DNA of 62,973 nucleotides, the filler included, from Collodictyon triciliatum (lineage: Eukaryota), in assembly GCA_043381765.1 (NCBI GenBank). It is 9 parts of 9 records of this genome, joined end to end, with 100 filler letters (N's around TTAATTAATTAA, not from the genome) between each part and the next. Parts side by side here need not be neighbours in the genome. Positions count along the whole stretch, not along the records: positions 1 to 7,470 come from JBHJMP010003884.1; 8 more parts are not named here. One strand, 5' to 3'. The notes under the pieces were generated by a model, which had not been told where the DNA came from, searched no databases, and saw only the letters and a list, made by a program, of their open reading frames with translations. This document shows, piece by piece, positions 251 to 3,200 of the stretch (positions within the stretch are counted from its first letter, which is position 1; each line of letters begins with the position of its first letter). A program made the position numbers and the translations under genes.

Positions 251-3200
251 ATGAAGGACGAAAGTCCACCTGCGTTGGGCACTATTCGCCTGCAAATTGC
301 AAGACATGACGAGACAGCCGAAGGCCATCTCACTGCGCAGGTGTACACTTCCGACGCACAAGGCACCTGGATCGATGCAGATCTCATTGTTCCTCACGAG
401 CTGCACTTGGCCCATCTGGGCAACAGAGGTGTGGAAAGGTGTGATCTCCATCAAGATCTTCGTCTGCTCGAACACATTCAACTCCACTTCCAGGCAACCG
501 TCTCCTACTGTGAGAGAAGAAGCGCACTGGACAAAGCTGCCTGTGTGAACTTGCAGGCTCGGCTGCTTGGAGGGGGCCAATTCCTGTCCACGACCCCACC
601 TCAAGTCAAGTTTGAGGACGAAGATAACAAAGATAACGGAGCTGAAGAAGATACCAAAGATACCAAAGATACCAAAGATACCAAAGATAACGAAGATGAC
701 GGAGCTGAAGAAGATACCAAAGATAACAAAGGTAACGAGGGTGATGCTACCAAAAATGAAGAAAACCTACATGATGCGCCAAAAGGAGATCAGAAAGAGT
801 CTAAGACCAGCAGCACAACCACAAAAACAGATGCCGCAGAAAGCTCGAAGCCGAAGAAGCCCGCAAAAGACACAGAAGCAGAAACTCCTTCGCAAGACTA
901 TGAAACAGAGGAAATGAAGACATTACCATTCTATGCGACTAAAAAGGACGAAATCACGAAACTGGATTTGTCCGAAAACCTCCGAAATCCGACAAACTCG
1001 TTGGCTTTGGCGCATCACTTTCGCTTTGGGAAAGTTAAAAAGTACAAGATACTGATTGGGTATATTGTCAAGAGCGGGTTGAGTGTCGAGCCCCTAACCA
1101 TCCGACATGTTTCAGAAATCGGCCTGATTGCCCGCACAAATGATATTGAAATCTGTAGTCAGTTGTGGAGAGTTGTCACCAGAAAGGACATCAGCGAAGA
1201 CTTGTATGTTGCGCCGCACTATATCCGCTGTCTAGCAGAGATTCTACTATTTTCTGATGTCTCTGGCCACCAAAAGCACATCGAGAAAGTTATGGGGAAA
1301 ATTATCGAAAGCATAGAAAAGTACCAAGACAGCCAAGTATTAAAAGAACAATCTCGCAAAAAGTCATGCGTTGATCGAACACCAGATGAGCAGCTATCGA
1401 GCAACCAACAGGAAAATCATGTAATTTCTGAGAATCAAGAAACCAGGACAAAGACAGAGGAAGTAAATGAACATGATGATCAAATTGAAAGCCTTGAAGA
1501 GAAGCGCATGAAAGAGGACCATCACATGCAGTTTCTAGTCCATTCCATCGGAATTTTACTGGACTCTATCCTCCTGAGAAAAATCACGGTATCTATCCCA
1601 GAGGAGAAACGAGAGATTGTCACCCATTTTCTTTTAAAATCGAGGCTGAGCACCTCACTCCAATATAATCACATTTTTGAAAAGGCGTATCAAGGCTTCA
1701 TTCGTATGTGGAATTCATCTGGGTCTTACACTGTAAATTATATGAAACCTCCAAAGATTGATTCATCTGGTATGAAACCGTCTGCATTGAGAGGCATCAT
1801 ATTGAAAGAATACAACGCCTCAAAACGTGCTTTCATTCACCTGGATGATGGAGAATACTGGTATGATAACTACATATTCTTCAAGTCTCTGATTTTGGCA
1901 CACCGACTCGTGGATGCAGTCATCTTTTCAGACCACATTCTTTCCAGAGATAAAAGCTCTGAATTTTTGCTCTTTGTTTTGGAGGATTTCGTCAGAATAG
2001 CTCAATTGCCCATCAAAGCGTGCTCTAAAGAAGCTCTTCGATACATCGAAAAGCTGGTTAGTGATGAATTTATGATTGCGCAACGTCCCTTTTATGGGCA
2101 TCATGCTATTTACCAACTACGAAAACTTGGACAAAACGAAATCCACTCCAAAAACGTTCAGAACATTTTTCAAAATAGAAGCTCGCTGCACAGCAGAAAC
2201 ATGTTTATTTCTTTGGTCGAGCACGAACTAGGAAAGCATCTGGAACGAATGAACGTGTCAGGCATCTTGATGAGCGAATACCATCTTCCCACTGACCTGT
2301 TACAACAAGCCCACGAGAATTACCTCAAGATTTCGACACTGAGAGCCCAGGGTCAAGATTCGAATACAGCAAAGGGCGCTGATTACGAAGACGAAAATGA
2401 GGAGGATGATATATACGTTCCTCTGAATGCAAAGAAAGATTTCAACGACGAGAAAGCTATCGATGCAGATGCCATCGTGGACTTATTTTTGAAAGGATAT
2501 TCAGGAACGCTTGCCATACTCGGGAAATCTGGTGCTGGCAAGTCCACTTTTGCAAAAAAGCTTTATGAAAGACTCCGCACCAGAGGCTCTCAAAAGGTGT
2601 GTCCAATATTCATCAACTTGCCTGCGGTTGACGACCCGAGAAAAATAATGGAGTTTGTCAGAAAGAGCATGAGGTCAGAATATGAGAAGCTCTCAGAATC
2701 TACGCATGCAATATTCATCATGGACGGGTATGATGAGCTGATGGAAGCAGGAAAGATTAATATTATCAAAGAAAACTGGTCGTTTCTTCAAAAGCATCAA
2801 GTTATCATTACATACCGCTATAACATGCAAGATTCAAGGCACGATTTGCAGAAAATATTTGGAACTGAGAACCAACCCATATCAAACCTGCAGTTCATGA
2901 TTATTCAACCCTTCGCAGATGAACAAATCAAGGAGTATGTTAGGTTGTTTGTTGAATCACAACCTAAAATTGCATTCTCTAGTAATGAGCTAATCTCAAA
3001 GGTCATGAGCTCCCCAAGTTTGAAAGAATCAGCCGAGTCTCCCTTCATTCTCTCTTTAATCATGCGGGTGCTTCCAGAGTACATGCAGGAGAAAAAGATT
3101 GGGTCCGACGAAAACCTTTCCAGGTTTGAAATTTATGAACGATTTACCAACTACTGGCACCATAGCCGAGAAAAGAATTTGGATGATACAAATCTATTCG

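What the first reader, a model, noticed from the sequence alone, without database searches (positions are those of the whole stretch)
251..595. NLR-like protein with a ubiquitin-like cleavable leader hiding an N-myristoylation signal (RLLGG|GQFLS)
Seen: the first ~108 aa end in VNLQARLLGG (545-574), immediately followed by G-Q-F-L-S-T-T (575-595) and then a long acidic disordered linker. Established: ubiquitin ends in LHLVLRLRGG, DUB/ULP proteases cut after the diglycine, and N-myristoyltransferase acts on an exposed N-terminal G-x-x-x-S/T, including glycines exposed by proteolysis. Inference: cleavage after GG would release the leader and create a GQFLS neo-N-terminus. That would give protease-gated lipidation and membrane targeting of a STAND/NLR-like sensor, and possibly a free Ubl-like modifier. 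I recall similar LRGGG-x-x-S motifs in ciliate NACHT-WD40 proteins but cannot verify this here. This is the strongest candidate for an undescribed system in the window.
Basis: partly seen in the sequence, partly recalled or inferred. Interest (0 to 1): 0.82.

Follow-up and report, generated by a model that had tools for sequence, protein, structure and literature searches.

The report
Masked lipid-anchor motif in NLR-like protein
A large immune-receptor-like switch protein of a freshwater eukaryote carries, after its first ~106 residues, a short conserved motif that looks like a protease cut site followed by a hidden fatty-acid attachment signal, but nothing shows that the piece in front of it is ubiquitin-like.

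Summary
ORF 251..>6236 (+) encodes a single-exon NACHT–pentapeptide–WD40 STAND protein of at least 1,995 aa. Residues 99-115 read VNLQARLLGG-GQFLSTT and are followed by an acidic low-complexity linker.

The only recognisable full-architecture homologue comes from the flagellate Diphylleia rotans. It is 30% identical over NACHT–pentapeptide (E 1.7e-88). At the same place it carries LNGGGNGHS against LLGGGQFLS here. A divergent allele in freshwater RNA libraries reads LLGGGQVGS. So L-x-G-G-G-[Q/N]-x-x-S is kept while its flanks are unalignable. About 2.5e-4 such hits are expected by chance in 300 residues.

The motif fits LxGG↓ protease specificity and exposes a Gly with an N-myristoylation consensus.

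The "ubiquitin-like" part is not supported:
- no Pfam, PDB or Atlas match;
- 0 hits among 1.84 billion representative proteins;
- two AlphaFold models with pLDDT 51 and 45 and no beta-grasp.

Best reading (about 0.35): a protease-gated processing and lipidation switch at the N-terminus of an NLR-like protein. Chief rival (about 0.35): an uncleaved hinge or binding motif. The free Ubl modifier and the ciliate recollection are unsupported.

The parts
251..6236 (+). Single-exon ORF of a NACHT-pentapeptide-WD40 STAND (NLR-like) protein; 1,995 aa readable; the 3' end is lost in the N gap
   Evidence: RNA-library contigs along the gene, no joints except an allelic indel
251..568 (+). Orphan N-terminal 'leader' domain, aa 1-106 (globular-type composition, fold unknown)
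   Evidence: No family, PDB or Atlas match; AF2 pLDDT 50.7; composition
563..589 (+). Conserved short linear motif L105-L-G-G-G-Q-F-L-S113 (consensus L-x-G-G-G-[Q/N]-x-x-S)
   Evidence: The same motif is at residues 113-121 of Diphylleia P0011/P0040 and in an environmental allele
572..577 (+). Inferred scissile bond between G108 (572-574) and G109 (575-577); G109 would become the acceptor of myristate
   Evidence: Inference from LxGG-down-X specificity (PMC4246237) and the NMT consensus; not shown experimentally
581..602 (+). Hypervariable patch just after G109-Q110: FLSTTPPQ here, VGSVHKPK in contigs of runs X2, X3 and X4; Ser113 is kept by a synonymous change; a 1-nt deletion at 593 is compensated by a 1-nt insertion after 602
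   Evidence: tables 3, 4 and 5c (translated by hand)
578..913 (+). Acidic low-complexity linker, aa 110-221, with a DTK/DNK repeat (9-nt unit at 621-737); an allele lacks 63 nt in frame
914..2470 (+). Family-specific middle domain, aa 222-740, function unknown (in the position of an NLR effector or adaptor domain)
   Evidence: Homologous to P0011 487-617 (E 2e-8); no Pfam, PDB or PADLOC hit; weak HECT-like Atlas lead at 0.85
2507..2953 (+). NACHT NTPase domain, aa 753-901, with intact Walker A and B
   Evidence: PF05729 30.8 bits against cutoff 26.7; motifs
3872..4060 (+). Pentapeptide-repeat segment, aa 1208-1270
   Evidence: PF00805 E 8.9e-11
4067..6236 (+). WD40 beta-propeller region (aa ~1273-1995)
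   Evidence: PF00400 and propeller families
6237..6924 (.). 688-N assembly gap that hides the last few dozen codons and the stop
   Evidence: by comparison with the end of P0011

Best explanation
The gene encodes an expressed NLR-like STAND protein. Its parts, in order, are an orphan N-terminal domain, a motif, a disordered linker, a family-specific middle domain, NACHT, pentapeptide repeats and WD40 repeats. At the junction between the N-terminal domain and the linker lies a selectively maintained short linear motif, L-x-G-G-G-[Q/N]-x-x-S. The most likely function is endoproteolytic processing after the second glycine. LxGG-down-G fits the specificity of ubiquitin/Ubl-type and adenain-type cysteine proteases. 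The cut would remove the ~108-residue N-terminal domain and turn G109 into a new N-terminus. That N-terminus (G-Q-F-L-S-T) matches the N-myristoyltransferase consensus. The rest of the protein would then be lipidated and re-localised or re-partnered only after a protease has acted, in the manner of BID after caspase cleavage. Shown: the gene, its architecture, its presence in RNA libraries, and conservation of the motif beyond chance. Inferred: cleavage, its position, myristoylation and the consequence. The identity of the protease is open (a host DUB/ULP or a pathogen enzyme). The leader need not be, and is not shown to be, a ubiquitin fold.
For: (1) Recurrence of the motif. Window LLGGGQFLS (aa 105-113) matches Diphylleia rotans P0011/P0040 LNGGGNGHS (aa 113-121) without a gap, at the same domain boundary. 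About 2.5e-4 such matches are expected in 300 residues. LxGGG is in 0 of 38 other fetched proteins (63,357 residues).
(2) The flanks have diverged beyond detection. The leader-to-leader Smith-Waterman score is 30 against shuffles of 25.0 +/- 4.2, and 260 of 2000 shuffles reach it. The proteins are nonetheless true homologues: E 1.7e-88 over NACHT-pentapeptide and E 2e-8 in the middle domain.
(3) The environmental allele. Contigs of runs X2 and X3 (two studies) and X4 change 6 of the 8 residues after G109-Q110. They keep G-Q-x-x-S, with Ser kept by a synonymous TCC>TCG change, and they keep the reading frame (1-nt deletion plus 1-nt insertion; a 63-nt in-frame linker deletion).
(4) All 3 of 3 neo-N-termini (GQFLST, GQVGSV, GNGHSF) fit G-{EDRKHPFYW}-x-x-[ST]-{P}. 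Given GGG, the chance of this is about 0.076 each.
(5) Hydrophobic residues at -8, -6 and -2 from the first Gly (V-x-L-x-x-x-L-x-GG; L-x-I-x-x-x-L-x-GG) repeat the strand-plus-tail pattern recalled for ubiquitin's C-terminus (direct reading; the ubiquitin sequence is recalled).
(6) (M/I/L)XGG-down-X and (M/I/L)XGX-down-G are documented protease consensus sites (PMC4246237, passages read). Internal proteolysis followed by N-myristoylation is established, for example for BID (PMC4200515, passages read).
(7) Distant NACHT-pentapeptide-WD40 relatives in Hexamita inflata (P0013-P0015, 3 of 3) start MGCASS, a co-translational acylation signal. N-terminal lipidation therefore plausibly occurs in this receptor class.
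Against: No cleavage, protease or lipid has been observed. Only two family members and one allele exist, so the sample is very small and the motif was defined post hoc. The Arg of RLxGG is not conserved. Neither leader has any ubiquitin-family signal, and the low-confidence AF2 model puts aa 95-105 of the window protein in a helix rather than a terminal strand. The NMT pattern is permissive. The segment behind G109 is strongly acidic (net -18 over 112 aa) and has no Cys or basic cluster as a second membrane signal, which argues against stable membrane binding in the window allele. A Gly-rich hinge at a domain-linker boundary is a simpler reading. RNA-library contigs cannot prove transcription or translation. 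The organism's genome, and hence its NMT and DUB genes, could not be examined.
Confidence: 0.35

Rival explanations
1. Uncleaved hinge or other short linear motif. GGG is a flexible joint between a folded N-terminal domain and the disordered linker, or L-x-G-G-G-[Q/N]-x-x-S is a docking or phosphorylation site (Ser113). The N-terminal domain stays attached as the NLR's adaptor or effector domain.
For: The motif lies exactly at the change from globular to low-complexity composition. Both AF2 models leave it unstructured. N-terminal adaptor domains are the rule in NLRs (established knowledge). No protease or lipidation evidence exists. The acidic linker is unfavourable for membrane binding.
Against: A mere hinge does not need L at -2, Q/N at +1 and Ser at +4 kept at fixed spacing while everything around diverges and the next residues are hypervariable. 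Exactly three glycines are kept in both homologues.
Confidence: 0.35
2. Protease tripwire without lipidation. The motif is a bait for a pathogen's LxGG-type protease (adenain/ULP-like enzymes of large DNA viruses, polinton-like viruses or virophages, or papain-like proteases of RNA viruses). The cut activates or destabilises the receptor by removing an inhibitory domain or by exposing an N-terminal Gly degron. The NMT-like residues are incidental.
For: LxGG-down-G satisfies both adenain consensus forms (PMC4246237). The residues just after the site are hypervariable between alleles, as in the rapidly evolving tripwire regions of NLRP1 and CARD8 (PMC7857732 and PMC10249858, search listing and start of abstract only). 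An N-terminal Gly degron pathway acts on protease products (PMC7458402, passages read).
Against: No FIIND-like self-cleaving module was found that would release an active fragment after N-terminal degradation (Pfam). It does not explain why Ser at +5 and Q/N at +2 of the new N-terminus are kept. No virus or protease is known for this host. The leader has no relative in the viral contig collection.
Confidence: 0.12
3. Residues 1-108 are a true ubiquitin-fold (beta-grasp) domain that DUBs release, and it then also serves as a free Ubl-type modifier.
For: A C-terminal R-L-x-G-G (window) or L-x-G-G (Diphylleia) with alternating hydrophobic residues before it. Ubl precursors and Ub-fusion proteins are processed this way (established knowledge, recalled).
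Against: No sequence or profile similarity to any ubiquitin-family model or solved structure. The models are not beta-grasp, though unreliable. At 106-114 aa the leader is longer than ubiquitin. No E1/E2 context could be examined. Conjugation is pure speculation.
Confidence: 0.08
4. The segment is not translated as read. The real start is a downstream Met (the next in-frame Met is M222), and 251-913 is 5' UTR, so the motif is meaningless.
For: No proteomic evidence. The leader has no homologue in databases.
Against: The frame is open from 230 and its first ATG is at 251. Allelic indels keep the frame: a 63-nt deletion, and a 1-nt deletion compensated 9 nt later. The Diphylleia transcript has an equivalent complete ORF with a leader of similar length and the same motif.
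Confidence: 0.05

Closest known systems
Post-translational N-myristoylation after internal proteolysis (BID after caspase-8; also PAK2, actin and gelsolin fragments)
   Same: An internal Gly followed by x-x-x-Ser/Thr becomes an NMT substrate only after a protease exposes it, which switches localisation in a cell-death context (PMC4200515, passages read; the further examples are recalled).
   Different: There the protease is a caspase cutting after Asp. Here the site is LxGG-down-G, the protein is a STAND NTPase, and nothing has been shown experimentally.
NLRP1 / CARD8 protease 'tripwire' sensing
   Same: An NLR-type sensor has a fast-evolving, disordered N-terminal region that a protease cuts. 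In NLRP1 the cut exposes an N-terminal Gly (PMC7857732, PMC10249858 and bioRxiv 10.1101/2024.06.24.600508: search listing and start of abstracts only).
   Different: NLRP1 and CARD8 need a FIIND autoprocessing module and N-degron-driven degradation. No such module is detected here, and the conserved residues fit lipidation rather than only a degron.
Ubiquitin/Ubl precursor and fusion proteins (Ub-ribosomal protein fusions, FUBI-eS30; NEDD8 and ISG15 precursors whose diglycine is followed by Gly)
   Same: An N-terminal module ending in hydrophobic-x-Gly-Gly is removed by a cysteine protease from the protein fused behind it (recalled knowledge, not from a call).
   Different: The leader shows no ubiquitin-family sequence or fold signal and is 106-114 aa long. 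No known Ub fusion is reported here to unmask a myristoylation site: searches found none (0, 9 and 8 papers held the terms; none is on this subject by title or abstract start).
Adenain (adenovirus protease AVP) and related LxGG-specific cysteine proteases
   Same: The consensus (M/I/L)XGG-down-X or (M/I/L)XGX-down-G (PMC4246237) is matched in both forms by L-x-G-G-down-G in the window protein and in Diphylleia.
   Different: This is only a match of a substrate pattern. No such protease is linked to this organism.
NACHT-WD40 NLR-like proteins of protists and fungi (Hexamita inflata P0013-15, Mortierellaceae P0019-27, Reticulomyxa P0028)
   Same: The same NACHT-pentapeptide-WD40 core. The Hexamita members start MGCASS, a direct acylation signal.
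   Different: They are 22-28% identical. Their N-terminal regions are unrelated to the leader and middle domain (probability 0.14% for the middle-domain profile against P0013). None has LxGGG.

Membership tests
NLR-like STAND NTPase (NACHT clade) | NACHT domain above Pfam's gathering score with Walker A and B | tested here: met
   PF05729 30.8 bits against 26.7, aa 753-901; GKSGAGKST and FIMDGYDE
NLR-like STAND NTPase (NACHT clade) | C-terminal repeat 'sensor' region | tested here: met
   Pentapeptide repeats 1208-1270 and WD40 propellers from about 1273
NLR-like STAND NTPase (NACHT clade) | N-terminal effector or adaptor domain of a known type | tested here: not met
   aa 1-740 have no Pfam, PDB or PADLOC match; there is only a weak HECT-like Atlas lead (0.85)
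Ubiquitin-like (beta-grasp) domains | Sequence or profile match to a ubiquitin-family model or structure | tested here: not met
   Pfam at E<=10: none for either leader; PDB phmmer and profile searches: none; 0 hits among 1.84 billion representatives
Ubiquitin-like (beta-grasp) domains | Beta-grasp fold (beta-beta-alpha-beta-beta-beta) | tested here: inconclusive
   AF2 single-sequence pLDDT 50.7 and 44.5, topologies not beta-grasp but unreliable; Foldseek found 0 matches at E<=0.001
Ubiquitin-like (beta-grasp) domains | C-terminal diglycine preceded by Leu at P4, followed by a removable extension | tested here: met
   RLLGG-G (window) and QLNGG-G (P0011)
Ubiquitin-like (beta-grasp) domains | Processing by a DUB/ULP, and conjugation through E1/E2 | not testable with these tools
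   No genome is held; needs experiment
N-myristoyltransferase substrates | Free N-terminal glycine | not testable with these tools
   Depends on the inferred cut between G108 and G109; G109 is not preceded by Met
N-myristoyltransferase substrates | Consensus G-{EDRKHPFYW}-x-x-[STAGCN]-{P} (pattern recalled from PROSITE), Ser/Thr at position 5 preferred | tested here: met
   GQFLST (window), GQVGSV (allele) and GNGHSF (P0011): 3 of 3
N-myristoyltransferase substrates | Second membrane signal (basic cluster or palmitoylatable Cys) for stable membrane binding | tested here: not met
   The window linker has net charge -18 and no Cys near G109. The allele has His/Lys at positions 7, 8 and 10
Substrates of LxGG-specific cysteine proteases (DUB/PLpro/adenain type) | Leu/Ile/Met at P4, Gly at P2 and P1 in an accessible segment | tested here: met
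   L105-L-G-G and L113-N-G-G at a domain-linker boundary; consensus from PMC4246237
Substrates of LxGG-specific cysteine proteases (DUB/PLpro/adenain type) | Demonstrated cleavage | not testable with these tools
   Needs an expression or in vitro assay

The most novel reading that the evidence does not exclude
The motif is a virus-protease tripwire coupled to lipidation. When an LxGG-specific maturation protease of an infecting large DNA virus, polinton-like virus or virophage (or a papain-like protease of an RNA virus) is active in the cytoplasm, it cuts the bait LxGG-down-G. The masking domain falls off, host NMT myristoylates the new Gly, and the NACHT-WD40 machine is driven to a membrane or partner to trigger abortive cell death. 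This would be a protist NLR that combines the NLRP1 tripwire logic with the BID lipid switch. The hypervariable residues right after the site would then reflect an arms race.
Probability: 0.1. Interest if true: 0.85.

Novelty: new variant of a known kind. Interest (0 to 1): 0.55.

Why it matters
How NLR-like proteins of unicellular eukaryotes are activated, and what they do, is almost unknown. A conserved, masked lipidation signal behind a protease site would give a concrete activation mechanism that can be tested at the bench with three point mutants. It would extend post-translational myristoylation, so far tied mainly to caspase products in animals, to a non-caspase cut site and to a deep-branching protist lineage. 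It would also link protease sensing by NLRs (NLRP1, CARD8) to a different output. If the motif is only a hinge, the gene is simply a new lineage-specific NACHT-WD40 protein with two orphan N-terminal domains.

Tried and rejected
Homologues of the leader:
- phmmer against 1.84 billion representatives gave 0 hits.
- The word-indexed search with the whole protein gave 9 hits among 7,826 candidates, all NACHT/WD40 only, the best covering 18%.
- The Diphylleia leader searched among longer proteins found only itself among 62 candidates.
- The ESM Atlas gave no usable hit.
- The viral contig scan had 5 pattern matches, and none was confirmed.
- The metagenome scan had 284 pattern matches and one passed (L001). 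It is a 28-residue match (16 of 28 identical) seeded by the search pattern MKDESPPA itself, with nothing alignable beyond it. I reject it as chance.

Paralogues in the window: none. Own genome: not held.

Fold of the leader: two single-sequence AF2 models had pLDDT 50.7 and 44.5. Foldseek on the first gave a best E of 0.59 and no ubiquitin-like entry among the 50 rows. I did not search with the second model or with VIA-align because the models are too poor. A MAFFT alignment of the two leaders is gap-ridden, so I did not use it for folding.

Autoprotease idea (a leader that cuts itself at G|G like viral leader proteases): I saw no Cys/His pair conserved between the two leaders by eye. Dropped, not excluded.

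Splice-created Met-Gly start: no joint in the leader in RNA contigs.

Middle domain: no Pfam, PDB or PADLOC hit. The Atlas HECT-like lead (0.85, 119 shared features) is below the tool's own reliability marks. It is unrelated to the Hexamita N-terminal region.

Earlier findings of this scan: nothing for this place, this sequence or these words that bears on it.

Literature: no paper was found that describes a Ub/Ubl-type leader unmasking a myristoylation site on an NLR. One search returned 0 papers, one search returned 9 (8 listed) and one search returned 8; I judged these by titles and abstract starts only. (PMC8195603, passages) has no such architecture.

Parts of the gene without contig cover are not evidence of anything.
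Full report
**What is there.** The window is eukaryotic DNA. A (GAAA)36 microsatellite lies at 1-143. It contains intron-split genes such as a P5-type ATPase and has no Rfam match. No whole genome is held for it.

From the ATG at 251, preceded by an in-frame TAG at 227-229, one frame stays open to 6236. 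There it runs into a 688-N assembly gap (6237-6924), so 1,995 residues can be read and the stop codon is unknown.

Pfam finds three features:
- a NACHT domain at aa 753-901 (30.8 bits against a cutoff of 26.7);
- pentapeptide repeats at 1208-1270;
- WD40 propellers from about 1273.

Walker A (GKSGAGKST) and Walker B (FIMDGYDE) are intact.

**The observation.** Residues 99-108 are VNLQARLLGG (545-574) and residues 109-115 are GQFLSTT (575-595), exactly as reported. The region before the motif (aa 1-106) has a globular-type composition, with hydrophobic residues at 0.32. The 112 residues after it are an acidic low-complexity linker: D+E 0.31, hydrophobic 0.05, net charge -18, with a 9-nt DTK/DNK repeat at 621-737. 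A ~520-residue region follows (aa 222-740) with no Pfam, PDB or PADLOC match.

**Is it expressed and translated?** Contigs from four RNA-type libraries of three studies (all freshwater) lie along the gene. Together they cover 240-956 without any splice joint in the leader. One run carries what I recognise from memory as a SMART template-switch oligo on a loose end, which indicates cDNA (table 7). Contigs cannot prove transcription.

The allelic differences do argue for a translated frame. A 1-nt deletion at 593 is compensated by a 1-nt insertion after 602, and a linker variant differs by 63 nt net, which is in frame (tables 4 and 5).

**Homologues.** The leader (aa 1-115) is an orphan by every sequence method available:
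- no Pfam hit at E<=10 other than a 13.5-bit chance match;
- 0 hits among 1,835,955,588 representative proteins by phmmer;
- no Atlas hit and no PDB hit;
- nothing in viral contigs;
- in metagenome contigs, only a 28-residue match seeded by the search pattern, which I reject.

A search restricted to the NACHT–pentapeptide part (aa 720-1290) found 29 proteins among 7,999 scored candidates. The two best are from the EukProt transcriptome of Diphylleia rotans, a freshwater flagellate. P0011 is 1,907 aa, with E 1.7e-88, 30% identity and 99% coverage of that part. P0012 is 1,246 aa and starts just before the NACHT domain.

The remaining hits are 22-28% identical NACHT–pentapeptide–WD40 proteins of Hexamita, Mortierellaceae, Reticulomyxa and metagenomes. 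P0011 has the window protein's whole architecture, including the middle domain (BLASTP E 2e-8, 22% over 134 aa) and an N-terminal region of similar length.

**The decisive comparison.** In P0011 and its isoform P0040, residues 113-121 read LNGGGNGHS. This aligns without a gap to LLGGGQFLS (aa 105-113) of the window protein. In both proteins the motif sits about 110 residues from the start and directly before a charged, low-complexity linker.

The leader bodies themselves are not detectably similar. The Smith-Waterman score is 30 against shuffles of 25.0 +/- 4.2, and 260 of 2000 shuffles reach it. The MAFFT alignment is mostly gaps.

Chance does not explain the motif:
- From P0011's composition, 2.5e-4 matches to L-x-G-G-G-{EDRKHPFYW}-x-x-[ST]-{P} are expected in 300 positions, and 3.4e-5 in 40.
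- LxGGG occurs in 3 of the 41 stored proteins: the window protein, P0011 and P0040.
- It occurs in 0 of the 38 others (63,357 residues).

A third instance comes from the environment. Contigs in runs X2 and X3 (two studies), and one in X4, differ from the window at 13 bases plus two compensating indels within 581-602. Translated by hand, they read G-G-G-Q-V-G-S-V-H-K-P-K where the window has G-G-G-Q-F-L-S-T-T-P-P-Q. Six of the eight residues after Gln110 change. The Ser is kept by a synonymous TCC>TCG change, and upstream only A97P and A103S are listed (tables 3-5c).

Another X4 contig (445-595, 2 differences) covers the patch, and table 3 lists none of the patch changes in X4. The window-type allele is therefore present in X4 as well.

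The consensus is thus L-x-G-G-G-[Q/N]-x-x-S, flanked by fast-changing sequence. I take this as a short linear motif under selection (confidence about 0.75), with the caveat that it rests on only two homologues and one allele.

**What the motif fits.**
- L-x-G-G followed by any residue is the minimal recognition pattern of ubiquitin/Ubl-processing and several viral cysteine proteases (recalled).
- For the adenovirus protease the consensus (M/I/L)XGG-down-X or (M/I/L)XGX-down-G is stated in PMC4246237 (passage read). L-x-G-G-down-G satisfies both forms at one bond.
- Cutting there makes G109 the new N-terminus.
- G-Q-F-L-S-T, G-Q-V-G-S-V and G-N-G-H-S-F all fit the N-myristoyltransferase pattern G-{EDRKHPFYW}-x-x-[ST]-{P}: 3 of 3. 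Given GGG, the chance is about 0.076 each.
- Myristoylation of an internal Gly after proteolysis is established, with BID as the classic case (PMC4200515, passages read).
- Exposed N-terminal Gly is otherwise a degron in human cells (PMC7458402, passages read).
- The distant Hexamita relatives P0013-15 (3 of 3) start MGCASS, a direct acylation signal. This shows only by analogy that receptors of this class can be lipid-anchored. Their N-terminal domain is unrelated to the window's middle domain.

**What is not supported.** Nothing identifies aa 1-108 as ubiquitin-like:
- There is no family or structure match for either leader.
- Single-sequence AlphaFold2 models are poor: pLDDT 50.7, pTM 0.35 for the window leader and pLDDT 44.5 for Diphylleia.
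- The window model shows a beta-hairpin followed by helices. The Diphylleia model shows several strands, one helix and a disordered tail. Neither is a beta-grasp.
- Foldseek against the PDB gave 0 matches at E<=0.001 and no ubiquitin-family row among the 50 listed.

With such models the fold test is inconclusive, not negative. One point in favour is that the residues before the diglycine alternate hydrophobic and polar at -8, -6 and -2 in both proteins, like the last strand of ubiquitin (sequence; the ubiquitin pattern is recalled). The Arg of RLxGG is not conserved. A released 'free modifier' is unsupported, and the recalled ciliate motif could not be checked.

**Weak points of the lipid-switch reading.**
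- No protease, cleavage product or lipid has been seen.
- The sample is tiny.
- The NMT pattern is permissive.
- The window allele has a strongly acidic segment and no Cys or basic cluster behind G109, which is unfavourable for stable membrane binding. The environmental allele has His/Lys at positions 7, 8 and 10.
- A Gly-rich hinge or a docking or phospho-motif remains a serious alternative.

**Verdict.**
- Observation: confirmed.
- Interpretation: partly supported. The motif pair is conserved and the protein is NLR-like, but the ubiquitin-fold and modifier claims are unsupported.
- Best explanation (0.35): a protease-gated processing and myristoylation switch that unmasks the N-terminus of an NLR-like protein.
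- Chief rival (0.35): an uncleaved hinge or binding motif.
- Other rivals: a tripwire without lipidation (0.12), a true Ubl (0.08), not translated (0.05).
- Closest known mechanisms: BID-type post-translational myristoylation and NLRP1/CARD8 protease sensing.
- Literature: I found no paper describing this combination, judging by titles and abstract starts (0 papers; 9; 8; passages).
- Novelty: a new variant of known kinds, untested.
- Supplementary files of papers were not consulted and are not needed for any claim here.

Noticed in passing
window 581-602 and 621-683: Environmental RNA-library contigs carry a second allele. It has 13 substitutions plus a compensated 1-nt deletion/insertion packed into 22 bases right after the GGGQ codons, and a net 63-nt in-frame deletion in the DTK repeat linker. 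Elsewhere in 453-956 the listed differences are scattered single-base changes. The cause of the patchy divergence (gene conversion, complex mutation or selection) is unexplained.
   Followed up: partly
window 7471-7570, 15033-15132, 20564-20663, 28123-28222, 35680-35779, 43233-43332, 50784-50883, 58332-58431: Pairs of 44-N runs, each pair separated by 12 bases, recur about every 7.55 kb (one interval is 5.5 kb). This looks like masking or an assembly or scaffolding artefact rather than biology.
   Followed up: no
window 1-143: A (GAAA)n microsatellite of 36 copies lies about 100 bp upstream of the start codon.
   Followed up: no
P0013, P0014, P0015 (Hexamita inflata): Three NACHT-pentapeptide-WD40 relatives all begin MGCASS, a textbook myristoylation-plus-palmitoylation N-terminus, ahead of a ~500-aa N-terminal region unrelated to the window's.
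   Followed up: partly
P0012 / P0041 against P0011 / P0040 (Diphylleia rotans): Diphylleia has a second transcript group (1,245-1,246 aa) that starts just before the NACHT domain. It is nearly identical to P0011 in the C-terminal two thirds and lacks the leader, linker and middle domain. It is either a paralogue or an alternative isoform.
   Followed up: no
window 914-2470 (aa 222-740): The ESM Atlas features place the orphan middle domain nearest to HECT E3-ligase clusters (score 0.85, 119 shared features, all ten best hits HECT). This is below the tool's reliability marks and is not backed by Pfam or PDB searches.
   Followed up: partly
L001 759-842: A 1,269-bp metagenome contig encodes MKDESPPALG, identical to the first 10 residues of the window protein, followed by a weak HDE.AE match and nothing further. 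It was seeded by the search pattern and is probably chance.
   Followed up: yes
window 31233-35400 (-), 59014-60762 (+), 46175-46738 (+): Other genes in the window are a P5-type cation ATPase split over several exons, a protein kinase in a 582-aa open frame, and an EamA-type transporter fragment. Unlike these, the 6-kb NLR-like gene has no intron in its readable part.
   Followed up: no
window 6166: Loose ends of two contigs of run X2 at 6166 carry what I recognise from memory as the SMART template-switch oligo. This indicates a cDNA origin and an RNA 5' end or break inside the WD40 region (tables 7 and 8).
   Followed up: no
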